Below, one piece after another: positions 7,901-29,471 of a stretch of 64,000 bases of DNA. The stretch's first letter is position 1; every line of letters starts with the position of its first letter. Position numbers and translations under genes: made by a program. Under the pieces are notes generated by a model. That model did not search any database and was not told where the DNA came from. It was given only the letters and a program-made list of their open reading frames with translations. Source of the DNA: an uncultured Acidobacteriota bacterium (lineage in GTDB: Bacteria > Actinomycetota > Acidimicrobiia > Spongiisociales > ZC4RG35); assembly GCA_963720925.1 (NCBI GenBank), contig CAVRHE010000003.1:1263-65262 (forward strand). The letters are read 5' to 3'.

Positions 7901-10425
7901 CTAACCCGCCGCAATGGCCGCGAGAGCCGCTTCAGTGACGGGAAGCTCCTCCGCAACGCCATTCGACAGAGCGAAGGCACGAACCTCCAAGCTCTCGGCT
8001 GGAAGAAACTCAGGCATTCTCCCAAGGAATCCACTGACCAAGACATCGTCGACGTCGTAGACCCGCTGAATATCTGGTCGTGTGATTTGTAGGCCCGCCG
8101 TTCCAGAGAACACCCCATTGACAAAGAAGACGACTTGCTCTGCGGGTACCGGGCCCCTCTCGTCCACCGCCCAACCCTGAATCTCGAGATCTTCGAATTC
8201 AGAGCTGAGCAGTGCCGAATCGCTCCAAGCAGCATCGTCGACGGAGCCGACGATTGTCGACTCCTCGGCCACTGGCCAAAACGTCCCATCCGAGGCAACA
8301 AGTCGAGTGACTCGTCCGCTTTCTGCGACCTCCATCCCGAACCTCGTGTGGCCAATCAGATCGATTGTCTCGACCACTGGGTCGCCCGGTGGACCCGAGA
8401 CGGCGAGCAGCTCTAATTCGTTGAACCCGGAGACGAAACCATCGTCCGGAAGGAGCGCGTTGAATCGAGCCTCATCCCCGTCGAGGGCGAAAGTCGGGAC
8501 CACGGTTCTGATCGCACCGTTCAATGCGATTGCGACATGCAGCCCCACCTCAGCTGCTCCGGCCAAGCGACCATGAATGAAGCCTGGTACGAACTGACCA
8601 GTGTTGGGTGTGACATGGGCGAGACGCCAAGACTCGTCAACCAGTGCAGTGAGTCCCGATGCCCGATCGGCAACGTTGCTCGGCGAGGCTCCAATGAGGG
8701 AGTCGTATTCGCCGAATGAGTACAGGTCGAAGCCGCCGCCATCCTTGCCGAACAATGATCCAACGTGGGCTATGGCCTCGGCCACGCCTTCCTCCACATC
8801 ATCGAGCAAGACCTGGTTTCCGTCGCTCCCCTCGACGATGAGCGGGCGTGCCTGTCTGGCGCTTTCCGCAAGGGATTGACCATCCTGTACCCATGGAAGC
8901 TCGACTCCCAAGTGCTCCGCAAGGGTCGGCATCACGTCCACGGTGCGTGACGGGATCGTGTCTACGACACCCCGATCCTGATGGGGTGCCTTGATAAACA
9001 GCGGCACTAACCCGACCTCGTGGCCGTTCTGATCTGTGAGCGGACGGCGGGATGACTCAGGTTCGAAGCTGATTCCGTGGTCGGCAGTGACGACAATGAG
9101 GGCCTCGTCGAGGATCCCGATGCCCTCTAAACGGTCAAGCAAGGCCCCGATCATCCGATCGGTCATCTGGACTTGCAACAAATGACGCTGATATGCCTGG
9201 CTCGCTAAGGCTGACTCAATCCAAACCTCGGATTCCAATCCGTCGAGCTCCTCGCCATTGTTGTATTGACTGCCTGACGGGTAGTAGCGGAAGGGCGCGT
9301 GGGGCAGGAAGAGATGAATGAAGTTCAATCCGGCGTTCGAAGGACTGATTCCTTCGAGGAACTGGCCAAATCGGCCGACTTGATCGGTTTCGAACTCGTC
9401 CTGGGCCACGCGTCCGCGCCTCGCCCGGACTGAACTCGTTGAATGGATCAGAAACGGAAGACGGCCCCAGATGCTTTCGGATTGAGCATCATGGAGTAGA
9501 GCCTCATTGAGTCAACCGTCAGTGAGCTGAACCGATCGCCGAACGTCGTCGACTGAGGATCACCGCAGGTCGTTGGCGGACACAGATGTGTAAAGGGTTC
9601 GATGACATTCATTTCGTGGGAGGAATCCAGGAACGTGAACAAGTTCCCTGGATAGTTGGCCGCGGTCGGTAGGCGAGCAGTATCCGGAAAATGACCACTC
9701 AACAATGCCGGGACCGCCCACAAGGTGTTGTCGTGAGCCGCAGCGGTGTACTTGTACCAGGTCGACATCGAAGCCAGGGCGGCGAAGTTCGGGTAGCGAG
9801 TGGCATCGATACCGCCTTGGAGATTGAGAAGCGACACCACCGGAAACTCGTCGAATACGACGAAGACCACGGGCGTGTCAGAAGCAACGCCTGCTTCAAC
9901 TCCGGTGATACTCGACGGAAAAACGAGTGCGGAGACGGGCGGAGTAACGAGGAAATAGGCAGCAAAGATCAGCGGCGCCGGGATCAAGTACGTCAGAAAA
10001 GTCTTGAACCATTTCGACCGCCCGTACGCCCAGGCTGCAACCACGCCGATCAAGGCCGACCCGACCATAAGCACAATCCAATTGGTCGAGGTGAGCCGGA
10101 CGAGTGTGGTGTGCGAAATCAAGGCAACGAAGAGGCCCACAAATATCGATTGGGCGACCCTGCGCGCCTTCTCTGAAAATCCGTCCGCTGCCCATACGAT
10201 CAGATTCGCCATCAACCCGGGAACCAGAGTCAATACGACGACGAGCAGCACGATGTCGATCGGCTCGTTGCGCCGAGCCACGAAATAGCCCGCACCCGCC
10301 CGGAAGTCGCTGAGCAAGGGCTGGGTGACCGCGAAGGCGCCAAGCATCACGAGGATCAGCGGATCGACGAATCTGCGCCATGACCTGGGTTCGGCGGACC
10401 CGATCGCGGCCTCAGTGGAGGACAT
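7901..10425 (-). pseudogene. Membrane-anchored sulfatase-like hydrolase/transferase (alkaline-phosphatase superfamily, LtaS/EptA-like architecture), split into two frames
   Basis: The upstream part runs from ATG 10425 to stop 9448. It has hydrophobic N-terminal segments, then VVFVVFDEFPVVSLL...HDNTLWAVPALLSGHFP. The downstream part (ORF 7901..9409) continues the same fold (NFIHLFLPHAPFRYYPSG...LIVVTADHGISFEP) and adds a roughly 250-aa C-terminal extension. The two frames differ by -1, and the downstream frame is already open from about 9515. GC content is visibly lower than in the flanks. A GAGGGGG Shine-Dalgarno sequence precedes ATG 10425. Confidence 0.7.
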
Positions 10426-10438: not shown

Positions 10439-11926
10439 TCAGCTGCAGATGCCACTACCGGTGTCTGTGAACTGGGTGCTTCCCGGAGGGGTGATGAATT
10501 CCCAGTCGAGACCACCGGGATAGAGGGTGAGGGCGAGCACGCCAAATGCCTCGTTGAAACGCACGCCGCTGTTGGGCGACGGCCCTTCGAAATCGTCCAG
10601 CGACCGCCCACCGGTCCCTGCGGTGAATTGGGTGATCCCGTCGTCTTCCTCCTCACCCGCTGGGTCCTGGGGGAGGAATCGCTCATAGAAGTGGTCGTTG
10701 CCGTTGATCACGACATCGGCGTCGGCCTCGTAGAACGCCTCGAAGATCGGAAGCATCTCGGGATTCGTCCCACCGGAGCGGGAACTGAACAGCGGCTGAT
10801 GCCAGTAACCCAGGGTGCAGGCCGTGGAATGAGCAGCCAGGTCTTCCCGCAGCCATTCCTCCTGTGGCGAGCCCGCCTCGCATCCCACCTCGGTGCAGTT
10901 GGAGTTGATAACCACGATGTGCCAGCCGCCGAGGTTGTAGCTGTACCAGCCTTCGGCCGGGTCCCCCGCGGCGGCGCCAAAGTATTCGAAATAGGCGGAA
11001 GCCCCCGAGGTCCGGTACTCACGTGACCCCGCCGCGGGCCTGGTGATCGCCTTGTGACGCCCCCAGCTCGGGTTGTAACAATCGGCGAAGTTGGCCGCAG
11101 ATCCCGACTCATAGGCGTTGTCACCGGCGGTGAAGACCACGGTCTCCGGGCCCCGGGCGACCACCTCGTCGAGCAGAGCCGCGGTGGCTTCGTCTCCGTC
11201 ACTGTCACAGGCGCCGATGTCACCGGCGCCAACCAATATCGCCTGTTCGCCCGTTGGCGTCTCGCCACCCCCGGCCAATGTGATAACCAGCGTGGGTGGG
11301 GCCTGGGGATTCTCCCTAGAGGCGATATCGATGCCATCCTCGGACTCGGTGCTGACGTAGAAGTCGACACGTCCATTGCCAGTCACCGCTCTCGTCACGT
11401 CGACCTCCACCACCGTCCCGTTGATCGGAGCTACCAAGGGGGCGATCTGGGCGCCGATGGGTGGCGCCGAGGACCAAATCGTCTCGGCCTCGGTCCACGG
11501 CCCATCCACGAGGCTGATCAGACCGCCTTGCTCGGATCCGTCGAGCACGGCGAGGTGGAGGGCCGCCGAGGCGACAGTTGCCCCCTCCGGGATTCCGGTC
11601 ACCTCAAAGCCGATGAGAGCCCTCTTGAACTCGGTTCCATCCTGCTCCGTCTCCATGACCGGAGTCGTCCCCATCGCTGTCGCCAATTCATCGCTGTCGA
11701 CCCAGGTGTCCTCGACCGCCGTGAATGTGATATCGGCATCGCTCGCAGGGACGGTGGTGGTGGTGGTCGTCGGCGGGAGAGTGGTCGGTGGCGTGGTTGT
11801 GGGCGTGGTAGTCGTGGTGGTGATCGGCGCCAGCGTCGTCGTGGTGGGCGGCGTATCGCCATTCGCCACCAGGAACCCGACGATCCCCCCGACCAACAGC
11901 ACGACAACACCGATCAGGACATACAT
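10439..11926 (-). CDS. Membrane-anchored protein: Thr/Pro linker + beta-sandwich (DNRLRE/CBM96-like) module + purple-acid-phosphatase-like metallophosphoesterase domain with degenerate catalytic motifs
   Basis: An N-terminal TM segment (MYVLIGVVVLLVGGIVGFLV) is followed by a PTTTT linker. Next comes ITFTAVEDTWVDSD...ALIGFEVTGIPEGATVASAALHL. The phosphoesterase motifs read GAGDIG, TAGDNAY, GSRE (11018-11029, expected GNH[DE]), WHQP and GNDH (10691-10702, expected GHxH). It is a paralogue of 38149..39744. Confidence 0.75.
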   Translation of the reverse strand: MYVLIGVVVLLVGGIVGFLVANGDTPPTTTTLAPITTTTTTPTTTPPTTLPPTTTTTTVPASDADITFTAVEDTWVDSDELATAMGTTPVMETEQDGTEFKRALIGFEVTGIPEGATVASAALHLAVLDGSEQGGLISLVDGPWTEAETIWSSAPPIGAQIAPLVAPINGTVVEVDVTRAVTGNGRVDFYVSTESEDGIDIASRENPQAPPTLVITLAGGGETPTGEQAILVGAGDIGACDSDGDEATAALLDEVVARGPETVVFTAGDNAYESGSAANFADCYNPSWGRHKAITRPAAGSREYRTSGASAYFEYFGAAAGDPAEGWYSYNLGGWHIVVINSNCTEVGCEAGSPQEEWLREDLAAHSTACTLGYWHQPLFSSRSGGTNPEMLPIFEAFYEADADVVINGNDHFYERFLPQDPAGEEEDDGITQFTAGTGGRSLDDFEGPSPNSGVRFNEAFGVLALTLYPGGLDWEFITPPGSTQFTDTGSGICS

Positions 11927-12051
11927 GATCGCGGTTTGACGATTAGGACTACCGGTGTTGTCAGAAGTGATGATGCCTCCACGACGACTCTGCAGCTGGT
12001 GCCCACTTCAGACCACCCGTCAGAACAAGGAAATTTAGCGGCAGCCACCCA

Positions 12052-13069
12052 CTAGAGATTCTCGCCACGTGGCTGTCGGCGAAAGAGCACCCAACCGGCA
12101 CGCCAGAGCACGCGTTTTGTCTGCCACCGGACCCATTCCCAACCAACCACCAGCGGTGAGACCTGTTTCTTCGATGCTCGCTGGTAGCCCACCGCCTCCA
12201 ACGTCTCGCCGGCGATGGCCTCGAACAGGGCCAGGTCCTCGGCCGACATGGAGTGTTTCCAGTCGATCAGGCCTTTGGTTGGGAGCCATGGTCAGATGCT
12301 GATGATCTGCCGGGTTCTTCGCCTCGGCGAGGAAGCGCTCGGCTGTCCCCTGATAGTCGAGCATCTCCTCGTGGAAATCGAGCCCCAGGTATTCGCACAT
12401 GGAACGCACCGTGGCCTCCGGGTCCTCGATCAGGTCTTCGTAGTGGAACTCCCGATAGCGATCGGGGCCCAGGGTTGCGGCGGCTCGATGCCCCCGAGAG
12501 ACCCGGAGCTTCCAGTGAAAGGCGCCTTCCGCCACCGTGGCCGGGCCCTTGTCCCGTTCGAGATAGGCGAGCACCACATCGCGTCCGTCGCGGACCAGAT
12601 GAACGAACCGGGCCTCGGGGAACAGGCCGGCGATCGGCTCGATGAACGAGATGTAGAGCGGAGTCTTGTCCCCATACATGTCTTTGCCCCGGGTCTGGGC
12701 GTACATGGCGAAGACGATCCTGACCGCATCGGCAAAGCCGGCTGGGCGCTGATCCTCGATTGCCGACCTCACCTCCTCCCGAGGCAGGCCGAGGCGGCGA
12801 AAGTTGGACACGGCGTAGAGGTCGCCGAGGAAGCGATCGATGTCCAGGCCTCCACTCCCCTCGTAGCGGGAGTGATTCGGGGCCATCGTGGCCAAAAATC
12901 GCGGCTCATGGGCGACTGCCAGCTCCGGATGGGAGTCGAAGATCATTCGCAGGAGCGTCAGACCCGATCGTCCGCTGCTGACGAAGATCGGGACCACCGA
13001 TTGCACCGGGATCACGGTAACAGCGGGCAAAATCAGCCAATAACTGCTTGGGTTCTCGCCGGTTCTCAA
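12052..13069 (-). pseudogene. Sulfotransferase-family protein, reading frame broken once
   Basis: It carries the PAPS-loop-like motif PIFVSSGRSGLTLL and ...LFPEARFVHLVRDGRDVVLAY... The frame of ORF 12035..13069 loses similarity after ...HQHLTMAP. The frame of ORF 12052..12249 continues with KGLIDWKHSMSAEDLALFEAIAGETLEAVGY, which parallels PPTKGLRDWRRELSDDQIARFEALAGDLLEDLGY of the paralogue at 48489..49395. The junction is at 12277-12283 (CCCAACC on the coding strand). The start is uncertain: TTG 13069, or one of three in-frame GTGs just downstream. Confidence 0.7.
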
Positions 13070-13099: not shown

Positions 13100-13954
13100 A
13101 TGACGACTAGAACAAGTTGGTGGGGCAAACGTTCACTTTGGCAGCGATTCGTTCTGCTCCTGGTGGTAGTGGGGATCGCCGCCGCAGCCTTTTACTTTCT
13201 GACCCGGGGGCCGGCGCCGCAGCCCTCGATATACCGGATCGCCTCCTCGGGCGAAGGCGAGGCCACAGTCGTGGCCGAGGGCAACGATCCGCAGTGGTCA
13301 CCTGATGGGAATTCGGTCCTTCTCACCGCAGACGACGAGGAAGGTGTCGAAGGCATCTACCTGCTGGAGCTGGGTGGAGGCGAGCCCACCTTCATCACCA
13401 CTGGAGGGAACCCGAGCTGGTCGGCGGACGGTGCCACCATTGCGTTCAGCCTCGAAGACGACCAAGGCGTGTCCGGCATCTACACCATCGACACTGCTGG
13501 TGGTGAGCCTACGTTCCTAGTCGACGGCGATGAGCCGGTCATCTCTCCCGACGGCGCCTTGATCGCCTTTAGCGGTCAGGACCAGGGCGGGAACCCGGGC
13601 GTCTACACGTACGAGGTGGGCACCGAGGCCGTCACGTTGCTCACCCCCGGAAATGAGCCTGCCTGGTCGCCGGACGGGACGACCATCGCCTTTGTCAGCG
13701 ACAACTCCGAGGGCGACGCCGAGATCCAGCTCTTCGACCTGGCCAGCTCCGAGATCACCTTCGTCACCGGCGGCGACGACCCGGTGTGGTCACCGGACGG
13801 ATCGACTCTCGCCTTCAGCGGCGAGGACAGTGCCGAGTTGCCGATCGTGGCCACGGTTGCTCCTGGCTCGACGCCGGCAGAAGTCACCAGCGGCGAGGAG
13901 CCATCGTGGTCTCCGGACGGAACCGAGCTCGTCTTTGTGAGGACACCCGAGTAG
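13100..13954 (+). CDS. Membrane-anchored TolB-like beta-propeller protein (PD40/WD40-like repeats)
   Basis: It has an N-terminal TM segment (FVLLLVVVGIAAAAFYFL). About six diverged repeats follow, of the type P(Q/S/A)WSPDG..IAF...G..(I/V)Y. Confidence 0.75.
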   Translation: MTTRTSWWGKRSLWQRFVLLLVVVGIAAAAFYFLTRGPAPQPSIYRIASSGEGEATVVAEGNDPQWSPDGNSVLLTADDEEGVEGIYLLELGGGEPTFITTGGNPSWSADGATIAFSLEDDQGVSGIYTIDTAGGEPTFLVDGDEPVISPDGALIAFSGQDQGGNPGVYTYEVGTEAVTLLTPGNEPAWSPDGTTIAFVSDNSEGDAEIQLFDLASSEITFVTGGDDPVWSPDGSTLAFSGEDSAELPIVATVAPGSTPAEVTSGEEPSWSPDGTELVFVRTPE

Positions 13955-15635: not shown

Positions 15636-16574
15636 GTGACTCATTCGAGCGAGGAGAGCAGACGAGGGCCGAATTGGGGGCGCCTCGCCATAGTGGTGGT
15701 TGTCCTCGGTGCGATCCTCACCTTCTGGTTCTTGAACACCGGAGACGATGGAGAACCCGGAGCCACGACTACCACCCCTGAGGCGCAAGCCACCACAACC
15801 CCGACCAGTGTGGTGCAGACCCCGACGACGGCAGCCCCTTCGACGACAACAGCACCGACCAGTGCAACGACCACCGCGGCCGCCCCTGGAACCACAGGAA
15901 CCGCGGCCGCCGGGGGAGTTGGCGCCGTCTATGTCGTGGGTCTCGATGGCGCCAATGCCACCTGGCTCACGGATGGGTCAACCCCCACGTGGTCGCCCAA
16001 TGGGGACCAGATCGCTTTTCAAGGCACCGACGGCATCTACGTGATGGGCGCCGACGGGTCCAACGCCACCTGGCTCACCAACGGATCCACACCCGACTGG
16101 TCACCCAACGGCGACCAGATCGCCATCACCGGAACCGACGGGATCTACGTGATGGGCGCCGACGGGTCCAACGCCACCTGGCTCACCAACGGATCCACAC
16201 CCGACTGGTCACCCAACGGCGACCAGATCGTGTTCCAGGGCACCGACGGGATCTACGTGATGGGCGCCGACGGGTCCAACGCCACCTGGCTCACCAACGG
16301 ATCCACACCCGACTGGTCACCCAACGGCGACCAGATCGCCTTCACCGGAACCGACGGGATCTACGTGATGGGCGCCGACGGGTCCAACGCCACCTGGCTC
16401 ACCAACGGATCCACACCTGACTGGTCACCCAACGGCGACGAAGTCGTGTTCACCGGAACCGATGGGATCTACGTGATGGGCGCCGACGGGTCCAACGCCA
16501 CCTGGCTCACCAACGGATCCGCACCAGACTGGTCACCCAACGGCGACCAGATCGTGTTCCAGGGCACCGCCTAG
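15636..16574 (+). CDS. Membrane-anchored six-blade PD40 beta-propeller protein with near-identical blades
   Basis: The start is GTG. A TM segment (LAIVVVVLGAILTFWFL) is followed by a Thr/Ala/Pro linker. Then come six units of 36 aa, GTDGIYVMGADGSNATWLTNGSTPDWSPNGDQI(A/V)F(T/Q). The stop overlaps the stop of the convergent gene at 16571. Confidence 0.85.
   Translation: MTHSSEESRRGPNWGRLAIVVVVLGAILTFWFLNTGDDGEPGATTTTPEAQATTTPTSVVQTPTTAAPSTTTAPTSATTTAAAPGTTGTAAAGGVGAVYVVGLDGANATWLTDGSTPTWSPNGDQIAFQGTDGIYVMGADGSNATWLTNGSTPDWSPNGDQIAITGTDGIYVMGADGSNATWLTNGSTPDWSPNGDQIVFQGTDGIYVMGADGSNATWLTNGSTPDWSPNGDQIAFTGTDGIYVMGADGSNATWLTNGSTPDWSPNGDEVVFTGTDGIYVMGADGSNATWLTNGSAPDWSPNGDQIVFQGTA
15915..16562 (+). 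repeat. In-frame tandem repeat, period 108 bp, six units (the last five nearly identical)
   Basis: Unit boundaries were read directly at 16023, 16131, 16239, 16347 and 16455. Units 2-6 differ only at a handful of positions, mostly in the last four codons. Unit 1 (about 15915-16022) is more diverged. Confidence 0.9.
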
Positions 16575-17596
16575 CCCGAGGATCGGGCGGCTTTCAGGAT
16601 TCGCCCGAGCATCGACACCACCCGAGCGCCGTCCTCACCCGTTATCGCAGGTGCTCGGTCGTGGCGCACGGCCTCGAGGAAGTCCTCGATGATCACGTCG
16701 TGGCCCCAGAACTGCCTCTTGGCCAGATAGCGGGCGCCGGTTGTCACGGTGCCGATCCCGTGACCGAAGACTCCTGCCAGAGAGCTGCGCAGAATCTGAT
16801 GCGGCTTGTGGCCGCCATCGGGTGGGATCACGAACTGGATGTCCCTGAACAGATCGAGGACGACGACACCACGCTCGCACACGATCGAAACAAACCACTC
16901 CGATACCGGCGCCTCGAAGATCATCGTCAGCTCGGCCATCACGTCGATGCCGCCACTGAACTCGGCACCGAGCGACGCGAACGTCGTGGAGTCCTTTTCC
17001 AGCTTGGACCACGCGTGGTCGATGGTGAGACCTCCGAGGAGGGAGTCCAACAGGTAGATCATGTGGGGCGCTTCGTCGAAGAAGAGCCCACCTGGAAGTT
17101 GCGGATACCAATGCGGCAGTCGACGGTTGGGGCTGCTGGCCTGCAACGCGAGAACATGCCGGACGGCTCCGAGCTTGCCCGAGTCGAGGCGTTGTCGCGC
17201 CGAGGAGAACGATCTCGAGAAGAGCAGGTTGTGAGAAACCCCTAGCTTCATCCCGGTCTCCCCGGCGGTTGCGACCATTGCGGAAGCCTCGGCGTCGTCG
17301 AGAGCCATTGGCTTCTCCACGAACACGTTGATCCCTCGTCTCATTGCCGACACGGAGAGCTCGGCATGGCTGAAGGGCGACGTGCACACGAAGACCACAT
17401 CGGGCTGACGATCGAATAGTTCCGACGCCTCGGCAAATGATGACGACTCGTATCGCTCTGCCACGGCCCACGCTCGTTCATGGTTCCGATCCGCTATCCC
17501 GACCAGGGTCACCTGGTCGAGCCGCTCCAAGACAGGCAGGTATCGATCGGCTGCCACCCAACCCGAGCCCACCACACCGACCTTCAACTCAGTCAT
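16571..17596 (-). CDS. Gfo/Idh/MocA-family NAD(P)-dependent oxidoreductase
   Basis: I chose the internal ATG 17594-17596 (MTELKVGVVGSGWVAADRYLPVL...). It has the Rossmann motif GVVGSG and the EKP motif (VFVEKPMAL). The start overlaps the stop of the upstream GT4 by 8 nt. Confidence 0.8.
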   Translation of the reverse strand: MTELKVGVVGSGWVAADRYLPVLERLDQVTLVGIADRNHERAWAVAERYESSSFAEASELFDRQPDVVFVCTSPFSHAELSVSAMRRGINVFVEKPMALDDAEASAMVATAGETGMKLGVSHNLLFSRSFSSARQRLDSGKLGAVRHVLALQASSPNRRLPHWYPQLPGGLFFDEAPHMIYLLDSLLGGLTIDHAWSKLEKDSTTFASLGAEFSGGIDVMAELTMIFEAPVSEWFVSIVCERGVVVLDLFRDIQFVIPPDGGHKPHQILRSSLAGVFGHGIGTVTTGARYLAKRQFWGHDVIIEDFLEAVRHDRAPAITGEDGARVVSMLGRILKAARSSG

Positions 17597-18728
17597 GGCG
17601 CCTCGCCCGCATTTCCTCGAAGAGCTCCAGGTTGGCCGTCGCCGTGGATTCCCAGCTGTACCCGCCCTGGACTCGCTCATGAGCGGCCGCACCCATTTCA
17701 CGACGTTTCCTTGGATCCATGAGCAGTTCAAGCATGGCATCGGCGACGAGAGCCGTGGAACCTGGAGCCACGACGAAACCGGTCACTCCGTGAGCGACGA
17801 TCTCCCGAACGCCACCCACGTCGCATGCAACGACTGGAAGACCAGTCGCCATTGCCTCCAGGATGGTCAGGGGCATGCCTTCGATCTGTGACGGTCTGAC
17901 GAACACGTCGGCCCGACGGAGGACTTCGGCGACGTCATCCCGCATGCCGAGGAATTCGACTGCTCCCTCGAGCCGATGGCCTTGCACATACCGCTGGAGC
18001 GTCGGCAGCATCGGGCCGTCGCCGACGATAACGAGGCGCGAATTTCCAGCCCGGCCGTAGACCATCCGGAACGCCTCCAGGGCGATGTCGGGGCCCTTGT
18101 TCGCAATGAGTCGCCCGACGAAGACAAATCGGACATCACCTTCTCTCTTGGCACCCCCCGGCCGGAATTGCTCCAGGTCGACACCGTTGGGGATCACCCT
18201 GAGGAACTGCTCCGGCCGTGGTTTCGCACCGGCTGCGACCGCCCGGCTCACTGCCACCAGAGCGTCGGCTCGGGCAACGAGTCGTCGTGCCACGGTCGTC
18301 TCGTAGATCCGCGAAACCGCGCCCCTCCACCCGGCAAAATCGTCGAGGCCGGCGATGTGGAGCGTCAGCACGCTCGGGATTCCAAGGGCCCTCGCCGCCG
18401 ACAAGGCCGGAGGAGTGGTGGTGAAGAACTGGTGATGGGCATTGAGCACGTCCGGGTCAAACGCCTCGATTGTCGACTTCATCTTCCGAAACGAATCCAG
18501 CGATACGGTGAGCTCGAGACCCGTGACCCCACTGAGCCGGGTGGATGGAAAACGGTGGACCAAGACACCATCGAGCATTTCTCTAGCCGGCCAGCCGTGG
18601 CGGCCCAGCGTTACGACCATGACATCGTGGCCGCGACGGGCGAGCCTCGTAGCCACCTCATTCACCACGGCTTCGACTCCGCCGCCGATGTGGGGCGGGT
18701 AATAGTCAGTGGTGAACGCGACCCTCAC
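17589..18728 (-). CDS. Glycosyltransferase family 4 (GT-B)
   Basis: It starts at GTG with MRVAFTTDYYPPHIGGGVEAVVNEVA... The C-terminal half has the E..G(M/L)P..ILEAMA motif (QIEGMPLTILEAMATGLPVVA). Confidence 0.85.
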   Translation of the reverse strand: MRVAFTTDYYPPHIGGGVEAVVNEVATRLARRGHDVMVVTLGRHGWPAREMLDGVLVHRFPSTRLSGVTGLELTVSLDSFRKMKSTIEAFDPDVLNAHHQFFTTTPPALSAARALGIPSVLTLHIAGLDDFAGWRGAVSRIYETTVARRLVARADALVAVSRAVAAGAKPRPEQFLRVIPNGVDLEQFRPGGAKREGDVRFVFVGRLIANKGPDIALEAFRMVYGRAGNSRLVIVGDGPMLPTLQRYVQGHRLEGAVEFLGMRDDVAEVLRRADVFVRPSQIEGMPLTILEAMATGLPVVACDVGGVREIVAHGVTGFVVAPGSTALVADAMLELLMDPRKRREMGAAAHERVQGGYSWESTATANLELFEEMRARRHD

Positions 18729-18751
18729 CTACGTCACGGCGGTCGAGCCGT

Positions 18752-19700
18752 TCAGACGTGGTCGACGCGGTCGGCGTTATTCGCCCCGGCGTCGGATCGG
18801 ACCGCCATGACGTCGATAGCCGGCAGGTCCGACCCATGCAGCAGGGTCAGGTCAACGATCGTGTCTGTGCCTGTAGCGAGGGCGGCATGCCACTCACGGG
18901 GCGCTGTCTGGCGGTGATGGTCGTGACCCTGACCCCTCGAGCGAACCAGCATCAGCCCCAGATGTCTGAGACCGTCACGGAAAGTGCGGAGCTTTGGTTG
19001 ACCGCCGGATCGCCGCCGGTATCGAAATCGGGACCTGCTCGATCCTCGCCCCGTGCTGCACTGCCTCGATCAGGAACTCGGAGGCGAACTCCATTCCCGG
19101 GGAAACCAGGTCCAACTGCTCCAGGTAAGGCTTCCTGATGCTGCGAAGACCGCAGTGGGCGTCACCGATGTCGCTTCTGAAGAGGACATTCATTATTCCG
19201 GTCAGAACCGGATTGCCGACGTAGCGGTGAAGCCAGGGCATCGCCCCCTTCTCCATTCCCCGATTGAGGCGGTTTCCGACGACCATGTCCGCGCCATCTT
19301 GAAGTGGCTCGACAAACGCGGGGAGGGCGCCGAAGTCGTATGTTCCGTCTGAGTCACCCATGACGAGATAGCGACCCCTCGCCTCGGAGAGCCCACGACG
19401 GCAAGCGTTCCCGTATCCGCGATCGGGCTCGTGGATCACCCGAGCGCCGGCCGCACGGGCCATGACGACCGAACGGTCAGACGAGCCATTGTCGACAACC
19501 ACGACCTCGCCAGAGATGCCCAATTCGACCAGCGCCCGGCTGGCCTCCTCGACACATCGACCGATTGCCTCCTCCTCGTTCAGACATGGCATGACGATCG
19601 ACACGTCGATGGCGCGGCCGGCGACGGGGACGCCGTTATGGGTTTGCGGAGCCTCGCGAGCTTCCATTCGATTGGACTTGCGGCTCTCGGAATATGTCAC
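18752..19700 (-). pseudogene. Glycosyltransferase family 2 (polyprenol-phosphate sugar synthase-like), frame broken near the 3' end
   Basis: It contains VSIVMPCLNEEEAI...VVVDNGSSDRS...MGDSDGTYD (a DxD-type motif). ORF 18975..19700 ends ...EQVPISIPAAIRRSTKAPHFP*. The +1 frame reads YRRRSGGQPKLRTFRDGLRHLGLML, the usual GT2 C-terminal motif, and stays open to 18752, 24 nt before the next gene start. The junction is near 19021. Confidence 0.75.
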
Positions 19701-20050
19701 GCTGGCTCACCGCCCTCGTCCTCCGCCTCGTTCTCCGGGCCCAAGCTCCACACCCAGCGGAAAACCATCGGGACCACGAAGAACATGCCGGCGACCCCCG
19801 CGGACAAAACCGCGGCCTGACCCCAGAGGGGCAGACGTGCCAGCGGCTCGAACATGCGAAGCCAGCCCGGGGTTTCCACTTCCTGAATCTCGGGCGCCTC
19901 GTACGGCGTTTCCTGCGCCACGACGATGCCAGTGTCAGCGGCGGCGACCAACGCCGGCGCGAAGACCACCATCGCCACAAATGTCAGACCAACTATCAGG
20001 CGCGCCAAACGCAACGCCTTCCGCACCATTACACCCTTCACGAGCCCCAA
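19697..20050 (-). CDS. Small hypothetical membrane protein (two hydrophobic segments)
   Basis: The 117-aa ORF contains LIVGLTFVAMVVFAPALVAA and AAVLSAGVAGMFFVVPMVF. Its stop overlaps the GT2 start (ATGA). I recognised no family. Confidence 0.5.
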   Translation of the reverse strand: MGLVKGVMVRKALRLARLIVGLTFVAMVVFAPALVAAADTGIVVAQETPYEAPEIQEVETPGWLRMFEPLARLPLWGQAAVLSAGVAGMFFVVPMVFRWVWSLGPENEAEDEGGEPA

Positions 20051-20055
20051 CTCTC

Positions 20056-20931
20056 TTATCCAGGCGGGTTCCGATAGCCCCTGACCAGGGCCCTTACCCG
20101 CTCCTCCATCCTCATCCCCCGCGCCATCTTGCGCGCAAAAAAGAACTGCCGGTCGGACCGCTGGACCGGCACCCTGCCAATCCTAAAGGGGTCCGTACTT
20201 TGTGAAACCGGGGATCCTCCCCCCAGCACCGCTGTGTCGTAATTGGCCCGGACCACCTTTTCGGCGGAGTCGTCCCAGAAGCCCTTTGGATATGCAAAGT
20301 GCTTCGGAGCCTGACCGGTTCGCATCTCGATGAGGCGATTCGAGTGGCCAATCTCTTCTTCGATCTGATCCACACCCAGGCCGCGCAGATCCGGATGGGT
20401 ATGAGTATGTGCTCCCAGAGTCACGAGACCGGTTGAGAGCATCTCGTCGACCTGATCCCAACTGAGGGGCCGGTCTCCGGGATGTAACAGCTCTCCGGTC
20501 TCGATGTGACCGCTGGTCAGATACAGCGTGAACGGAATCCCCTGCTCGCGCAGAAGCGGAAAGCCGTTCTCGTAGAAATCGGCATAGCCATCGTCGAAGG
20601 TCAAGACGAACAGACGCTTTGATTCCGGATCGTCGGCCCCAGAGAGGGCGTCACCGAAGCCGACGATCCGGCCATGGTCCAGTAACCACTTGACGTGGCC
20701 CCGGAACATCTCAGGAGAAAGGTCCATCTGGCGCCCGGAGCCCGCCCCCACCTGGTGATAGATCAGGATGCGGGGACCGGGCCAGTCACCCAAGAAGAGG
20801 TCGGTCGCTGCGAACGAGCCTTTGGCTGCCGTCCTGAGAACCTCTCGTGTCGCCGAGCGCAACCCCGACGAGGGTGGCACGACACCGCCCTCGACAGAGG
20901 TGAACGACGGGCTATCTGTCAGCTCGGACAT
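20056..20931 (-). CDS. Polysaccharide deacetylase (NodB homology domain, CE4)
   Basis: I chose the internal ATG at 20931 ([10 protein letters not shown]...). It contains ILIYHQVG, LTFDDGYADFY and GAHTHTHPDL, the CE4 motifs. The upstream 68 codons of the ORF track overlap the co-polymerase gene. Confidence 0.8.
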   Translation of the reverse strand: MSELTDSPSFTSVEGGVVPPSSGLRSATREVLRTAAKGSFAATDLFLGDWPGPRILIYHQVGAGSGRQMDLSPEMFRGHVKWLLDHGRIVGFGDALSGADDPESKRLFVLTFDDGYADFYENGFPLLREQGIPFTLYLTSGHIETGELLHPGDRPLSWDQVDEMLSTGLVTLGAHTHTHPDLRGLGVDQIEEEIGHSNRLIEMRTGQAPKHFAYPKGFWDDSAEKVVRANYDTAVLGGGSPVSQSTDPFRIGRVPVQRSDRQFFFARKMARGMRMEERVRALVRGYRNPPG

Positions 20932-22789
20932 GGGCACCTTCCCGGCCCCGTCCAACCTCTTCGATGTCGACCTCGGCTCCCTCGGCTGGCTCAGCCCCAC
21001 CCGGGTCGCCCTTGGAGCGCCCTTCGGCGAAGCCGTCGACGGTCTTCCACATCTTGGAGCGGAAGCCGGTCGATGCCCAGCGAGTGAGCTTGGTCCGTCG
21101 ACGACGGAGAAGCACCACACCCAGCAGGGTGGCACGGCGGATGGCGAAGTCGCGATCTGCGGCCTCGAGGGAACGGGTCACGGTGTGACCGGCCGAAGCG
21201 ACCAGGATCACGGAGTCAACCCTTTGGGCCAATACATGAGAAGCAGCTTCGCCCAGATTCGTCCCGGCGATGATGACGATGTCGAAGATCTCTCGCGCGA
21301 CCTCGAGCAATAGCTCGAACCGATATCCGGAGAGAACATCGGCCGCGTCTCGCTTGCCGTTGCCGGAGCGAAGGGCTCGCAGCCCGTTCACCACCTCAGG
21401 GGCGGATAGCAGGACTGTCTTGAACTCGGAGATGAGCTCCTCACGCTCGCCACCGGCTCCGCCGAGCAAGCTGGACAAGTTGGCTCCCGCCGCGGGCCCC
21501 CACTCCACCATCTGGTTGGTCTTGTCAAAGGTTGCGTCGAGGAGGAGCACGCTCCGACTCGATACCGCCACTGCGACGGCAATATCGGCAGTCAGCTCAC
21601 GGATGTCCTCTTTGAAGATCCCGCTCCCCTGGAATGCGACGATGGCATTGTCGTGATCGTCCAGTTGGCTGCGAAGCATCTGGATGGCGGCCTTTCGCCT
21701 CCCTCCTGTGCTTTCGAGGTACCAGGGCTGGTTGGTCGGGTGGTGGACGATGCCCAGCGGCCGTGAGGGCAGCTCGACTATGACCGGCGGCCCCTCGTCG
21801 AGGTCCTTGGCGGACCACATCATGCCCCGGCCCCGCTCGAGCGCGATGAGCCCGATCAGTACCGCGCCGATGGCTCCAAGTGTCGCCAGCATCTGGTTGC
21901 TGGATGTCGAAGCGGCATCGAGGGTGACGGGCCTGCTGTCGACACCACCCGAACGAGCAAGGGCTTCCTGCTCGAGAATTCCGGTGAAGAGGTTGTTCCA
22001 CCTGGTCTCGAGCTGCTGAAGCTCGAGCTGCATCAGGGTGAGGGCGGGATCCTGCAGTTCCTGAACAGCGGGATCGACCGGCGCCGGGAGCGTGGCCAGC
22101 TGCGCCTGCAGCTCGGAGAGACGCGCCATGGTCCGGTCCATCTCGGCCTGGATCGATTCGGGTGTCCGCAGCACCAGCTCCGGGTTCATGAGTTGGGTGG
22201 TCAGATTCCCCAGATGGGCCTGCAACGCTGCCACCTGATTCTCCAGGACACTCCGCTCGGTCTGCTGTGCCACCTCATCGGGGGTGGGGGGAGTCGCCGC
22301 CTGGAGGGCTGCGATCTCGTCGCGCGTCGCCTTGATGTCAGTGGAAGTCTGCTCCAGGTCGCTTCTCATCCCGTCGAGGCCGGCACCAACGGTCGACACC
22401 GCGAGGAAGTTCTTCTGCATGTTCTCAGCCAGCGCGTCCGCCTCGGCCTGAGTGAATCCGCGAGCGATGAACTGAAGCTGGTTGGCTTCGGTCTCGAGAT
22501 CCACCTCTGCCATGAGCCATGGGACGAAAGGACCCGGAGTCTCGCCGATTACGTCGGAGTTGACGTCAGTAGCCAGAGCGAACTGTGTGTCGAGGAAAGT
22601 CTCGAAATCCTCCCGCTCGAGCGCCTGCGGGTCCTCGGTGAATGTCACCGAGGACATCGCCTCGAACGGCGGCAGGTTGGCATTGCGATACTCGGCCAGC
22701 TCGCCGGAGACCACGTACGCCAGGATCGCGGCGGCGGCCAGCAGCCACCATCTCGCCTTGGCGATACCTCGAATCGTTGTCATGTCCAC
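20912..22789 (-). CDS. Polysaccharide co-polymerase (Wzz-like) fused to a degenerate BY-kinase/MinD-like domain
   Basis: An N-terminal TM segment ([14 protein letters not shown]) is followed by a long coiled-coil-like ectodomain and a second TM segment ([17 protein letters not shown]). The cytoplasmic domain is arranged like CpsD/Wzc kinases. In that domain, [13 protein letters not shown] replaces Walker A and IVIIAGTNL replaces Walker B. There is no C-terminal Tyr cluster. Confidence 0.7.
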
Positions 22790-24727
22790 TGCTTCACCTC
22801 TTCGGTCTCTCTCAAATCGACGGTCACATCATCAGGCCACTCGTGATTGGCGAGGGCCAACAAGAACTCCTTGAGCTCCTGTCTTCCACCTTTGGTGGAC
22901 ATCTGCTTCAGCTGCCGGACGCTCTGCTTGAGCAGGTCCGGGCCGGGAACCTCTGTCTCGGCGATATTGATCTGGGGGTGCGCGCTACTCAAAAGCGGGC
23001 CATGGGCCAGTTCCTCGAACAGCTTCTCGCCGGGACGGATGCCGACCACCTTGACCTCGATGTCCCGACCGGGGACCAAGCCGCCGAGCCTGATCATTCG
23101 GTGGGCGAGGTCGACGATCCGAACCGGCTGACCCATGTCGAGGACGAAGACCTCACCGCGGTCAGCGAGCGCCGACGCCTGGAGAACTAGCTGGACCGCC
23201 TCTCCGATCGTCATGAAGTAGCGAGTCATGGCCTCGTCGGTGATGGTCACCGGCCCTCCCTTGCGGATCTGCTCCATGAAGGTGGGGACCACGCTCCCGC
23301 GGCTGCCCAAGCACATTCCCGAATCGAACCGACGAATAGATGCAGCCGTCGGTCTCGGTGGCGGAGGCCGACTGCACCAGCATCTCGGCCATCCGCTTCG
23401 AGGCTCCCATGACGCCTTTTGGCTCGACGGTCTTGTCGGTGGAGATCAGGACGAAGCGCTCGACGCCGGTGTCACGAACCACCTTGAGCAGGTTGCTGGT
23501 TCCGACGACGTTGGTTTTGACGGCTTCCTCCGGCCAGTCCTCGAGGATGGGGACATGCTTGTGGGCGGCGGCGTGGAAGATGACCTGTGGTCGATACTTC
23601 ATGATGAGCGCCTTGAGCTTTCTCTTGTCCCGGACGTCGCACAGGACGGGGGTCAGCTCGGTGCCCGCCGGCGCTTCCCACTTGACCATGTTGTCGTGGA
23701 GGTGGGTCTCGTCGTTATCCATCGCCACAACTCGGGCCGGCATGAAGGCGAGGACCTGACTCACGATCTCCGACCCGATCGAGCCTCCAGCTCCGGTGAC
23801 CAAAACAGTCTTGCCGTACAGGATCGATTCGACAGCCTCGAGGTCGGTGCTGACCGCAGGGCGAAGGAGGAGGTCTTCGATCTCGAGGTCCCTGATGTCG
23901 GGACCGCCGTCATAACCGGTGAGCAGCTCATCGAGATCGGGGACGATCCTCAGCCGGACATCGATGTCGACGCAGAGGTCGACCAGTCGGCGGGCGAGAA
24001 CGCTGGCACCCTCCGAGGCAACGATCACCTGTTGGACGTTCAGGTTGGTCACCAGCGAAGCGATGTCTTCGAGCTCGCCGACGATGGGCAGGTTGGCGAG
24101 ACGCTTTCCCTTCGTAGTAGGCCCGGAGCTGACGAACCCGACTACATCGACTTCGTAGGGGCCGGTATAGCGGGCGAGGTCGGCGGCGCGTTTGCTGGTG
24201 CCCAGGATGAGGACACGATCGCGGGCGTCGAGACGGAGACCGCGATGGAAGGAGAAGAGACGGGAGCGGAAGCGGACCGCCCCGAGGAACCCAAGTGAGA
24301 TCATCGAACCGAGGACCAGCACGGACAGGGGAACCGCCCGGTTGCCGGGCCCTTCGATCAGCTCCAGGTCGCCCATGGCGAGGGTGATGAGGATCAGGAC
24401 TGTTGACGCCCAGAACGTGGCGGCGATGACCCGACGGGCCTCGCTGATGCTTGCGAACTCCCAGACATGGCCATACGCACCCATTGCGACGTTGGCCACG
24501 AGATGGACTCCGATGATGACCGGCAGCGCCACGGCGACACGCGTCCACCACACGCCGGCGAGCCTGCCGTCCAAAGAGAGGACACCGAGCGCCGACAGGT
24601 AGGCAACGGCGATGACCATCGCGTCGACGAATGCGAACGAGATATCGGCACGAAGCTGCGCGAGCAGGGTCGCCACCTGTGCCCCAAACGAACTAGCCCC
24701 AAACTTCCCGGTCAACCGCTTCATCAC
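22780..24727 (-). pseudogene. CapD/PglF/WbpM-like membrane-bound nucleotide-sugar 4,6-dehydratase, frame broken once
   Basis: Four N-terminal hydrophobic segments are followed by VLVTGAGGSIGSEI...[21 protein letters not shown] (an SDR YxxxK-type core). ORF 23162..24727 loses similarity after [11 protein letters not shown] 22780..23316 continues [41 protein letters not shown]. The junction is at the CCC run 23306-23308 (GGG on the coding strand). Removing one G gives [13 protein letters not shown]. Confidence 0.85.
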
Positions 24728-25947: not shown

Positions 25948-25948
25948 G

Positions 25949-29389: not shown

Positions 29390-29471
29390 GAGCTTTTCGA
29401 CTGCCGCCTGAGGTTCGCGGTGCCAAAGTGGCGCCGACCGACACCAACGGCGGGGACGAAGGAATAACCGC

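What the first reader, a model, noticed from the sequence alone, without database searches (positions are those of the whole stretch)
12052..13069. Two paralogous sulfotransferase genes inside the glycan locus: candidate sulfated polysaccharide pathway
Genes 12052-13069 and 48489-49395 both carry a PAPS-loop-type motif (SSGRSGLTLL and TNGSGTTLH). They share the block LFPEARFVH(L/A)VRDGRDV(V/A)LA and a C-terminal KGL(I/R)DW...(D/E)(D/Q)...FEA(I/L)AG segment. They sit next to glycosyltransferases and an exporter, not next to lipid or secondary-metabolite genes. Sulfated bacterial polysaccharides are rare. Known cases are mainly cyanobacterial EPS, rhizobial Nod factors and KPS, and mycobacterial sulfolipids. 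I know of no characterised sulfated envelope glycan from this type of organism. No PAPS-synthesis genes (cysDNC) are in the window. Both genes carry a frame break, so their functionality is unproven.
Basis: partly seen in the sequence, partly recalled or inferred. Interest (0 to 1): 0.7.

Follow-up and report, generated by a model that had tools for sequence, protein, structure and literature searches.

The report
Two sulfotransferase genes, glycan locus
An uncultured Acidimicrobiia bacterium carries two related sulfotransferase genes among cell-envelope sugar-polymer genes; their "broken" reading frames are almost certainly assembly errors, a sulfated envelope glycan is plausible but unproven, and similar gene sets are common in related uncultured bacteria.

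Summary
Both genes are real. After one-base repairs, each matches Pfam Sulfotransfer_3 (E 3e-28 and 2e-30). They are 40% identical paralogues, and models of their orthologues match only PAPS-dependent sulfotransferases in the PDB.

The frame breaks look like assembly errors, not gene inactivation. At least 12 breaks lie in about 10 genes of the window. All have the same +1 phase, and every break resolved at DNA level is a one-base insertion missing from independent assemblies of close relatives. Purifying selection continues downstream of the breaks, and intact orthologues are numerous.

A glycan role is plausible but indirect. In 42 of 50 related Actinomycetota loci, the homologue has glycan-synthesis neighbours. 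In three loci it lies beside PAPS-synthesis genes, including a cysC–ST–GT2–ABC-2–ABC operon.

Two caveats apply. ST2's exporter is DrrA/ABCA-like rather than Wzt-like. The whole ST2 clade has lost the catalytic loop arginine (GRSGTT→NGSGTT), which 145 of 146 diverse family domains keep.

No sulfate chemistry or PAPS pathway could be tested.

The parts
12052..13040 (-). ST1: sulfotransferase (Sulfotransfer_3), about 328 aa when repaired. It has a canonical 5'-PSB loop (GRSGLT), the catalytic Glu (AHEPRF) and the Lys (GDKTP). There are two one-base insertions, in T-run 13029-13032 and at A 12279/12280.
48489..49395 (+). ST2: divergent sulfotransferase-fold paralogue, 301 aa when repaired. The loop reads GTNGSGTT (Arg to Gly) and the 3'-PB Ser is Ala, while the Glu and Lys are kept. 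One one-base insertion lies near 48983-48984.
45616..46620 (+). ABC transporter ATPase, DrrA/ABCA-like. It is the first gene of the conserved ST2 operon.
46617..47486 (+). ABC-2 type permease. Its start overlaps the ATPase stop codon.
47494..48486 (+). APH/choline-kinase-like phosphotransferase with an HGDLSPGN catalytic loop. Its stop codon lies 2 nt before the ST2 start.
10439..11926 (-). Secreted CBM96 protein, downstream neighbour of ST1. Pfam matched only its CBM96 domain; the metallophosphoesterase part is inferred from paralogue 38149-39954, whose Metallophos domain Pfam did match. Synteny is conserved in relatives.
13100..13954 (+). PD40 (TolB-like) beta-propeller protein, divergent from ST1. 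Synteny is conserved.
7931..10347 (-). Membrane-anchored alkaline-phosphatase-fold ('Sulfatase'/LtaS-like) protein, about 810 aa. It is split by two +1 frame breaks near 9420 and 9462.
16571..36043 (.). Core glycan-assembly block. It holds a GFO/IDH/MocA oxidoreductase, GT4 17589-18728, GT2 18975-19700, a polysaccharide deacetylase 20059-20727 and Polysacc_synt_2 22780-24727 (frame break near 23445). It also holds an epimerase 24982-25947, GT4 25949-27052, a GNAT, the WecA-like transferase 30436-31398, GT4-GNAT 31386-33176, GT4 33274-34527 and a second APH-like kinase 34883-36043.
51411..52299 (+). TauE/SafE (TSUP) anion permease with a +1 insertion at 52088. An Rrf2 regulator follows at 52302-52745(-). 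The pair is conserved next to the ST2 region in L001, L002 and L007 but absent in L004.
54452..61964 (.). Nucleotide-sugar and glycan genes. These are UDP-glucose dehydrogenase 54452-55787(-) with an insertion at 55284, an epimerase 55787-56920(-) and a second UDP-glucose dehydrogenase 57442-58753(+) with an insertion at 57573. GT4 58737-59969(+) and a heparinase II/III-like protein 59973-61964(-) follow.

Best explanation
The window comes from an uncultured Acidimicrobiia bacterium. ST1 and ST2 are two anciently duplicated, cytoplasmic, PAPS-type sulfotransferase-fold enzymes that are intact in the living organism. Their frame breaks are single-base insertion errors of the assembly. The most likely role is O-sulfation of an envelope glycoconjugate while it is still being built on the cytoplasmic face of the membrane. 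Possible targets are a wall-associated or secreted polysaccharide, or a lipid-linked oligosaccharide. Each protein ends in a cationic amphipathic helix that could hold it at the membrane. ST1 is a canonical enzyme. ST2 is co-transcribed with an ABC-2 exporter and an APH-like kinase and has a non-canonical donor loop, so its exact chemistry is less certain. Shown here: family and fold membership, paralogy, the artefactual nature of the breaks, conserved synteny, and linkage of homologues to glycan and PAPS genes. Inferred: the substrate class, membrane tethering, and the sulfation itself.
For: Family and fold: Pfam Sulfotransfer_3, E 3e-28 and 2e-30. AlphaFold models of intact orthologues have pLDDT 89-90. 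Their top PDB matches are all PAPS sulfotransferases: TPST1/2, the OLS and CurM ST domains, Stf9 and Stf1 (by sequence). The catalytic Glu and Lys, equivalent to TPST2 Glu99 and Lys158 (PMC10951654), are kept in both proteins, and the Arg78 equivalent is kept in ST1.

Breaks are artefacts: at least 12 frame breaks lie in about 10 genes of the 64 kb window, including housekeeping-type genes that are 95-97% identical to relatives. All have the same +1 phase. Every break resolved at DNA level (ST1, ST2, TauE and both UDP-glucose dehydrogenases) is a one-base insertion absent from L001, L005 and L007, and at protein level L004 and L006 read through these sites. dN/dS is equally low upstream and downstream of each break: ST2 0.16 and 0.18, ST1 0.11 and 0.15. 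Dozens of intact orthologues of 301 and 328 aa exist.

Glycan link: the window holds a WecA-like transferase, five GT4s, a GT2, NDP-sugar enzymes and a deacetylase. In 42 of 50 homologous loci of at least 10 kb there is a glycan-type neighbour. L088 has three STs plus an APH kinase inside a Wzx/Wzy cluster, and L087 has an ST beside a Sulfotransfer_2 gene and an MBOAT.

PAPS link in relatives: L036 carries cysC-ST-GT2-ABC-2-ABC. L070 has tandem STs beside a Sat/CysC PAPS synthase and a sulfate-type permease. L045 has cysD 4.6 kb away.

Location: both proteins lack transmembrane segments and signal peptides, and both have a C-terminal amphipathic basic helix.
Against: No chemistry is available. 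No PAPS-synthesis gene or PAP phosphatase lies in the window or in the loci of close relatives, and the rest of the genome could not be inspected. The exporter in the ST2 operon is closest to the DrrA subfamily and to ABCA lipid-transporter NBDs. It shares only 28% identity with a Wzt-like ATPase that sits beside a homologous ST. The ST2 clade lacks the PSB-loop Arg that TPST mutagenesis shows to be important (PMC10951654). ST1's immediate neighbours are secreted proteins, not glycosyltransferases. The nearest solved structures act on peptides and polyketides, not sugars, so substrate class cannot be read from homology. No reads were available to verify the indels directly, and the window's own contig could not be retrieved. 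The neighbour count has no random-locus control.
Confidence: 0.6

Rival explanations
1. The two genes are genuine pseudogenes. The lineage has inactivated its sulfation genes, and the frame breaks are real mutations.
For: The breaks are present in the deposited sequence: the database holds the truncated 214-aa and 344-aa products of this contig (P0084, P0131). No reads were available to check them.
Against: The same kind of break hits about 10 genes in 64 kb, including UDP-glucose dehydrogenases, TauE and Polysacc_synt_2. All breaks (at least 12) have the same +1 phase, and insertions are also in excess in intergenic DNA. This fits an error process, not natural decay. No in-frame stop created by a substitution was seen in the tblastn alignments. 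dN/dS downstream of the breaks is as low as upstream. A 93%-identical MAG (L007) lacks the insertions.
Confidence: 0.08
2. The ST2 operon (DrrA-like ABC, ABC-2 permease, APH-like kinase, ST2) does not act on a polysaccharide. It modifies and exports a lipid, glycolipid, lipo-oligosaccharide or small molecule, in the manner of NodH/NoeE with NodIJ, or of a drug-modification and efflux cassette. Only ST1 would belong to polysaccharide synthesis.
For: The ATPase is best matched by the drrA subfamily, by NodI and by ABCA1/4/7 NBDs. It lacks the DEVLAVGD-type motif seen in the Wzt-like ATPase of L036. The kinase's weak relatives are choline/ethanolamine kinases, the macrolide-binding protein MABP-1 and an antibiotic phosphotransferase. 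The operon is flanked by secreted proteins, not glycosyltransferases. Both STs have weak NoeE hits in NCBIfam.
Against: The operon lies between two glycan gene blocks, and this position is conserved. Homologous STs paired with APH kinases sit inside a Wzx/Wzy cluster. No PKS, NRPS or lipid-synthesis genes are in the window. ABC-2 systems of several subtypes export glycans.
Confidence: 0.2
3. ST2 is not a working PAPS sulfotransferase. It is either a pseudo-enzyme (a scaffold or PAP/PAPS-binding subunit) or a neofunctionalised enzyme that uses another donor or another chemistry.
For: In all 78 clade members the loop Arg is Gly and the 3'-PB Ser is Ala. By contrast, 145 of 146 domains from diverse family representatives keep the Arg. 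Alanine mutants of the equivalent Arg in TPSTs lose most activity (PMC10951654). The clade has its own conserved basic residues (H18, H115, H143, R225, R251) and its own operon partners.
Against: The fold, the catalytic Glu, the Lys, the 3'-PB Arg and the rest of the loop (GSGTT) are conserved under strong purifying selection. Clade-specific basic residues could compensate for the lost Arg. Ala at the 3'-PB Ser position occurs in 19 of 146 otherwise canonical relatives and in ST1.
Confidence: 0.25
4. The enzymes sulfate tyrosines of secreted or surface proteins, as TPST and RaxST do, rather than sugars.
For: The best structural matches are tyrosylprotein sulfotransferases. Many secreted or surface proteins are encoded nearby (LRR/SLH, FG-GAP, CBM96, PD40, phytase-like).
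Against: TM-scores are only about 0.6 and identity about 20%, with CurM and OLS ST almost as close. Both proteins are cytoplasmic, with no signal peptide. Homologues elsewhere are embedded in glycan clusters with Wzx/Wzy, Wzm/Wzt and glycosyltransferases.
Confidence: 0.05

Closest known systems
Synechan (xss) cluster of Synechocystis PCC 6803, sulfotransferases XssA and XssE (PMC8205485)
   Same: Two sulfotransferases of different subfamilies sit inside a bacterial extracellular-polysaccharide cluster. [quoted passage not shown]
   Different: It is a cyanobacterial, Wzx/Wzy-dependent system, and its sulfate content was chemically measured. Here the host is an Acidimicrobiia, the only exporter seen is an ABC-2 system of DrrA type, there is no chemistry, and the two STs are paralogues from one subfamily.
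wps-1 cluster of Actinoplanes missouriensis: WpsB and WpsH sulfotransferases, WpsI protein-kinase-like protein, WpsF methyltransferase (PMC13390465, 2026)
   Same: It is an actinobacterial glycan cluster with two sulfotransferases and a kinase-fold protein. A sulfated polysaccharide was proposed but not chemically verified.
   Different: It is Wzx/Wzy-dependent. Its sulfotransferases are annotated to Gal/GlcNAc-type and heparan-sulfate-type families, not Sulfotransfer_3 paralogues. It has genetic evidence (a sporangium phenotype). Sequence relatedness to ST1 and ST2 was not tested here.
Tyrosylprotein sulfotransferases TPST1/2 and the CurM and OLS polyketide sulfotransferase domains (PDB 5wrj, 3ap1, 4gbm, 4gox)
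   Same: They are the closest solved structures by both sequence and fold. They share the catalytic Glu (H+8 position), the Lys, the 3'-PB Arg and a VRDGR-type motif.
   Different: Identity is only about 20%, and their acceptors are peptides or an ACP-bound beta-hydroxyacyl chain. ST2 lacks the Arg78 equivalent, and both ST1 and ST2 have Ala at the 3'-PB Ser position.
Rhizobial NodH and NoeE with NodIJ, and the LPS sulfotransferase LpsS (PMC12445080 cites Cronan & Keating 2004)
   Same: These are PAPS-dependent sulfations of envelope or secreted glycoconjugates. NodIJ is a DrrA-like ABC-2 exporter, as is the ST2 operon's exporter. Both STs give weak NoeE hits in NCBIfam.
   Different: LpsS belongs to the Stf0 family. 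The NoeE hits are far below cutoff (23 bits against 500). The hosts are Gram-negative, and their PAPS genes (nodPQ) are linked, which is not the case here.
Mycobacterial Stf sulfotransferases (Stf1, Stf9; PDB 2zq5, 2z6v)
   Same: They are actinobacterial cytoplasmic sulfotransferases of the same superfamily that act on envelope glycolipids and lipids. They appear among the fold hits.
   Different: The relationship is much more distant (TM about 0.4-0.47), and the gene contexts differ.

Membership tests
PAPS-dependent sulfotransferase superfamily (Pfam Sulfotransfer_3, PF13469) | Significant match to the family profile across the whole domain | tested here: met
   ST1 scores 99.9 bits and ST2 107.2 bits against a cutoff of 27, covering profile positions 2-216 and 3-216 of 216.
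PAPS-dependent sulfotransferase superfamily (Pfam Sulfotransfer_3, PF13469) | Sulfotransferase alpha/beta fold with a strand-loop-helix donor site | tested here: met
   AF2 models of orthologues P0001 and P0122 have pLDDT 89.8 and 89.0. All top Foldseek PDB hits are sulfotransferases, with E down to 4e-12 and TM about 0.6.
PAPS-dependent sulfotransferase superfamily (Pfam Sulfotransfer_3, PF13469) | 5'-PSB loop with a conserved Lys/Arg (TPST2 Arg78; xRSGTT) | tested here: inconclusive
   Met in ST1 (GRSGLT). Not met in ST2 or its whole orthologue clade (NGSGTT, 78 of 78). The Arg is present in 145 of 146 domains of diverse representatives.
PAPS-dependent sulfotransferase superfamily (Pfam Sulfotransfer_3, PF13469) | Catalytic base (Glu at H+8, equivalent to TPST2 Glu99 and the CurM/OLS Glu of the PPEL motif) and second catalytic Lys (TPST2 Lys158, GDKT) | tested here: met
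   Both residues are present in ST1 and ST2 and are (nearly) invariant in alignments A2 and A3.
PAPS-dependent sulfotransferase superfamily (Pfam Sulfotransfer_3, PF13469) | 3'-PB motif (Arg ... Ser, R-x7-S) | tested here: inconclusive
   The Arg is invariant (VRDGR). The Ser is replaced by Ala in both ST1 and ST2. Among 146 representative domains the position reads S 122, A 19, G 2, so Ala occurs in otherwise canonical members.
PAPS-dependent sulfotransferase superfamily (Pfam Sulfotransfer_3, PF13469) | A PAPS supply (ATP sulfurylase plus APS kinase) and a PAP phosphatase in the same genome | not testable with these tools
   None is in the window or in close relatives' loci, and the rest of the genome is not available. 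Homologues in L036, L070 and L045 are adjacent to cysC, sat-cysC and cysD.
PAPS-dependent sulfotransferase superfamily (Pfam Sulfotransfer_3, PF13469) | Demonstrated PAPS-dependent sulfotransfer to an acceptor | not testable with these tools
   This requires enzymology. No characterised close homologue was found: the named database hits are only 'sulfotransferase family protein' from MAGs.
ABC-transporter-dependent (Wzm/Wzt or TagGH-type) glycan export pathway | ABC-2 permease paired with a Wzt/TagH/KpsT-type ATPase | tested here: inconclusive
   The permease hits Pfam ABC2_membrane. The ATPase is best matched by the drrA subfamily and ABCA NBDs. It has no Wzt_C domain and shares 28% identity with the Wzt-like ATPase of L036. 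A profile search of the permease against the PDB was uninformative.
ABC-transporter-dependent (Wzm/Wzt or TagGH-type) glycan export pathway | Polyprenyl-phosphate initiating transferase and cytoplasmic glycosyltransferases in the locus | tested here: met
   There is a WecA/MraY-family Glycos_transf_4 gene at 30436-31398, plus five GT4s and one GT2.

The most novel reading that the evidence does not exclude
The ST2 clade is a neofunctionalised sulfotransferase-fold enzyme. It has lost the otherwise near-universal donor-loop Arg and the 3'-phosphate-binding Ser. It has gained its own set of conserved His and Arg residues, and it has become fixed in an operon with an APH-like kinase and a DrrA-like ABC-2 exporter. 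It may use a different donor or carry out a different group transfer on an exported envelope molecule, for example working in tandem with the kinase. More broadly, sulfated anionic wall polymers may be a common, unrecognised, phosphorus-free alternative to teichoic acids in uncultured Acidimicrobiia.
Probability: 0.15. Interest if true: 0.7.

Novelty: new member of a known kind. Interest (0 to 1): 0.4.

Why it matters
If confirmed chemically, this would add Acidimicrobiia, abundant and mostly uncultured aquatic and soil Actinomycetota, to the short list of bacteria that make sulfated envelope glycans. That would bear on cell-surface charge, metal binding, phage and grazer interactions, and the pool of sulfated organic matter in the environment. 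The survey done here suggests that such sulfotransferase-bearing glycan clusters are widespread in Actinomycetota metagenome-assembled genomes. Some are physically linked to PAPS synthesis genes, which gives concrete operons to test, for example cysC-ST-GT2-ABC-2-ABC in L036. There is also a practical point: the window shows how insertion errors in an assembly can pass for pseudogenes.

Tried and rejected
1. Programmed +1 frameshifting was rejected. Orthologues lack the extra base, and the break sites share no common slippery motif.
2. A WbdD-like chain-terminator reading (kinase plus modifying enzyme recognised by a Wzt carbohydrate-binding domain) was not supported. The ATPase has no Wzt_C domain and is DrrA-like.
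3. The two APH-like kinases (47494-48486 and 34883-36043) were tested as a duplicated pair matching the ST pair. They share only the catalytic-loop motif.
4. The 'Sulfatase' Pfam hit at 7901-9409 was considered as a true sulfatase partner. It is part of an approximately 810-aa membrane-anchored alkaline-phosphatase-fold protein, with scores far below the sulfatase equivalog cutoffs, so its function is left open.
5. A profile search of the ABC-2 permease against the PDB gave nothing useful.
6. Retrieving the window's own contig to learn its assembly method failed.
7. Permissive Pfam scans of eight unannotated ORFs gave no usable hits.
8. The third large protein search was not spent on locating cysC in the 2.7-Mb relative. 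The 120-hit display limit made success unlikely.
Full report
**Observation**

On the minus strand an ORF runs 12035..13069. Its homology continues in another frame as 12052..12249. On the plus strand 48489..49133 continues in another frame as 48880..49395. Joining the frames with a one-base correction gives proteins of about 320 and 301 aa. These hit Pfam Sulfotransfer_3 at 99.9 and 107.2 bits (cutoff 27), with weaker Sulfotransfer_1 hits. The two align with each other at 40% identity over 304 residues, E 3e-70. The paralogy and the family assignment are therefore confirmed.

**The frame breaks**

Many intact orthologues exist. For ST2 there are 301-304 aa proteins at 77-89% identity. For ST1 there are 328-aa proteins at 84-90% identity. 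Both sets read straight through the break sites.

I fetched syntenic loci from independent assemblies:
- L001-L003 are JGI contigs.
- L004 and L006 lie 38 kb apart on one 2.7-Mb ENA contig.
- L005 is another ENA contig.
- L007 is the NCBI MAG 'Acidimicrobiia bacterium T4R1BO.metabat2.227', 93% identical in DNA over 12.9 kb.

I then compared their proteins with the window by tblastn. The window shows frame changes in about ten genes, not just the two sulfotransferases:

| Gene | Approximate break position |
|---|---|
| Peptidase_S58 | 2780 |
| 810-aa 'Sulfatase'-fold membrane protein | 9420 and 9462 |
| ST1 | 12279/80, plus the T-run 13029-32 just after the orthologous start at 13040 |
| Polysacc_synt_2 | 23445 (Pfam profile split 1-173 and 167-275) |
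| ST2 | 48984 |
| LRR/SLH surface protein | 49852 and 51157 |
| TauE | 52088 |
| UDP-glucose dehydrogenase | 55284 |
| Second UDP-glucose dehydrogenase | 57573 |

From the HSP and ORF coordinates, every one of these breaks has the same phase, one extra base. Each break I could align at DNA level is a single inserted base. These are the ST1 break (against L005) and the ST2, TauE and two dehydrogenase breaks (against L001 and L007). At protein level L004 and L006 also read through the ST1 and ST2 sites. Intergenic DNA shows the same excess of one-base insertions. The affected genes are otherwise 95-97% identical in protein to their relatives.

dN/dS between the window and its orthologues is the same before and after each break: 0.16 and 0.18 for ST2, 0.11 and 0.15 for ST1. 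A uniform insertion bias of about one per 4-5 kb, spread across conserved genes and leaving no trace of relaxed selection, points to an assembly error process rather than gene decay. Several other long ENA contigs of this clade also carry truncated ST2 orthologues, broken at different positions (P0040, P0062, P0072, P0073, P0086). I could not see reads or retrieve the window's own record, so this conclusion is strong inference, not proof.

**What the proteins are**

AlphaFold models of intact orthologues are confident (pLDDT 89.8 and 89.0). In the PDB they match only PAPS-dependent sulfotransferases. TPST1/2 come first, then the OLS and CurM sulfotransferase domains, then mycobacterial Stf9 and Stf1, and then cytosolic and heparan-sulfate enzymes. 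Sequence searches give the same order.

In TPSTs the catalytic residues are Arg78, Glu99 and Lys158, and alanine mutants lose most activity (PMC10951654). ST1 and ST2 compare with these as follows:
- Both keep the Glu, eight residues after the conserved His of DSHP.
- Both keep the Lys, in GDKT.
- Both keep the Arg of the 3'-phosphate motif, in VRDGR.
- ST1 keeps the loop Arg (GRSGLT).
- ST2 does not. Its loop is GTNGSGTT.

The ST2 change holds for the whole orthologous clade. All 78 clade members among the database hits read NG, while all more distant homologues read (G/A)R. I searched the family profile against 1.84 billion representative proteins. This returned 53,020 matches at E ≤ 1e-3 and 3,505 at E ≤ 1e-30. 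In the 146 domains of the 150 best representatives, the Arg is present 145 times. The ST2 clade also has Ala in place of the 3'-PB Ser. That position reads S 122, A 19, G 2 among the representatives, and ST1 also has Ala. The clade carries its own conserved basic residues as well: H18, H115, H143, R225 and R251. So ST1 is a canonical member of the family.

Neither protein has a signal peptide or a transmembrane segment. Both end in a predicted long helix that is strongly cationic and amphipathic. This fits peripheral attachment to the cytoplasmic face of the membrane, which is an inference.

**Context**

ST2 is the last gene of a tight, conserved operon: ABC ATPase 45616-46620, ABC-2 permease 46617-47486, APH-like kinase 47494-48486 and ST2 from 48489.

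On one side the operon is flanked by secreted proteins: a phytase-like beta-propeller, an FG-GAP/ASPIC protein and a CBM96-metallophosphoesterase. On the other side lie an LRR/SLH surface protein, a TauE-family permease, regulators, two UDP-glucose dehydrogenases, an epimerase, a GT4 and a heparinase II/III-like protein.

ST1 heads a minus-strand run. It is followed by a CBM96 protein, the alkaline-phosphatase-fold membrane protein, a DegT aminotransferase and housekeeping genes. A PD40 protein is transcribed divergently from it. This arrangement is conserved in L005 and L006.

Between the two sulfotransferases lies the main assembly block: a WecA-like initiating transferase, GT4 and GT2 enzymes, a deacetylase, Polysacc_synt_2, an epimerase, GNATs and a second APH-like kinase. 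The two kinases are not close paralogues.

The ABC ATPase is closest to the drrA subfamily and to ABCA lipid-transporter NBDs. It has no Wzt C-terminal domain and shares only 28% identity with a Wzt-like ATPase found beside a homologous sulfotransferase. The exporter is therefore of ABC-2 type, but it is not demonstrably a polysaccharide exporter.

**Evidence from relatives**

A scan of GTDB species representatives found at least 567 related loci, essentially all in uncultured Actinomycetota (Acidimicrobiia, Jiangellaceae, Solirubrobacterales, Rubrobacteraceae). Several copies per locus were common. Only the three closest loci (L007-L009) carry the ST2-type protein and its operon.

Among 50 loci of at least 10 kb, 42 have a recognisable glycan-synthesis neighbour within 6 kb. 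No random-locus control was run for this count.

Several individual loci are informative:
- L088 has three Sulfotransfer_3 genes and an APH kinase inside a Wzx/Wzy cluster, together with Metallophos and Phosphodiest genes.
- L087 pairs the sulfotransferase with a Sulfotransfer_2 gene and an MBOAT.
- L036 has APS kinase, sulfotransferase, GT2, an ABC-2 permease and a Wzt-like ATPase in one tight operon.
- L070 has tandem sulfotransferase domains beside a bifunctional ATP-sulfurylase/APS-kinase and a sulfate-symporter-type permease.
- L045 has cysD 4.6 kb from the sulfotransferase.

These links make PAPS-dependent glycan sulfation the most economical function for the family.

**Comparison with what is known**

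Clusters with two sulfotransferases are established for the cyanobacterial sulfated exopolysaccharide synechan (PMC8205485). Sulfated capsules with sulfotransferase genes are described in Vibrio and Cobetia (PMC11641403, PMC11766843). Rhizobia sulfate Nod factors and LPS (PMC12445080). In 2026 an actinomycete EPS cluster with two sulfotransferases, a kinase-fold protein and a methyltransferase was shown genetically to matter for sporangium formation, with sulfation proposed but not verified (PMC13390465). A full-text search found no paper that discusses sulfotransferases of Acidimicrobiia.

The present case is therefore a new, uncharacterised member of a known kind of system. It is not a new kind of system. 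It has one unusual feature, the Arg-less ST2 clade.

**Verdict**

| Claim | Confidence |
|---|---|
| Family and fold membership of both genes | about 0.95 |
| The frame breaks are artefacts | about 0.85 |
| The substrate is an envelope glycoconjugate | about 0.6 |
| ST2 is a conventional PAPS sulfotransferase | about 0.4-0.5 |

Interest is moderate at 0.4.

Noticed in passing
whole window; break sites near 2780, 9420, 9462, 12279, 13030, 23445, 48984, 49852, 51157, 52088, 55284, 57573: At least 12 frame breaks lie in about 10 genes, all of +1 phase (one extra base). Intergenic DNA also shows an excess of one-base insertions against a 93%-identical MAG. The contig appears to come from an unpolished, insertion-prone assembly, so any 'pseudogene' call in it is unsafe.
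   Followed up: yes
window 49470-51231 (-): An LRR surface protein with an N-terminal SLH domain is far more divergent from its orthologues (about 44-67% identity) than the flanking genes (95-98%). It looks like a fast-evolving surface protein. SLH domains usually bind a modified secondary wall polymer, which could be the product of this locus.
   Followed up: partly
window 10439-11926 (-) and 38149-39954 (-): There are two paralogous secreted CBM96 proteins, one beside ST1 and one 8.5 kb upstream of the ST2 operon; Pfam matched a Metallophos domain only in the second. Metallophos and Phosphodiest genes also accompany sulfotransferases and an APH kinase in L088, which suggests a recurring module.
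   Followed up: partly
window 7931-10347 (-): An approximately 810-aa membrane-anchored alkaline-phosphatase-fold ('Sulfatase' Pfam, LtaS/OpgB-like architecture) protein is split into two ORFs by two breaks. It could be an extracellular glycan-decorating transferase rather than a sulfatase.
   Followed up: partly
window 51411-52745: A TauE/SafE (TSUP) anion permease, from a family linked to sulfite and organosulfonate transport, lies convergent with an Rrf2 regulator. The pair is conserved next to the ST2 region in L001, L002 and L007 but missing in L004. A connection to sulfur supply is possible but untested.
   Followed up: partly
P0233-P0238, P0247 (representative library); L070 4138-6912: The family includes proteins with two to four tandem sulfotransferase domains, up to 1298 aa. 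In P0247 the N-terminal domain also lacks the loop Arg (PGSGTT) while the second domain keeps it. This hints that Arg-less domains may work alongside canonical ones.
   Followed up: partly
window 13965-15584 (-), 27959-29389 (+), 41427-42353 (-): Three polytopic membrane proteins (about 9, at least 5, and 9 hydrophobic segments) have no Pfam match. One has marginal similarity to GT-C-like families. They are candidate polymerase, flippase or GT-C components of the glycan pathway.
   Followed up: partly
window 59973-61964 (-): A heparinase II/III-like protein sits at the edge of the UDP-glucuronate and GT4 block. Such proteins are common in uronic-acid-containing polysaccharide clusters.
   Followed up: no
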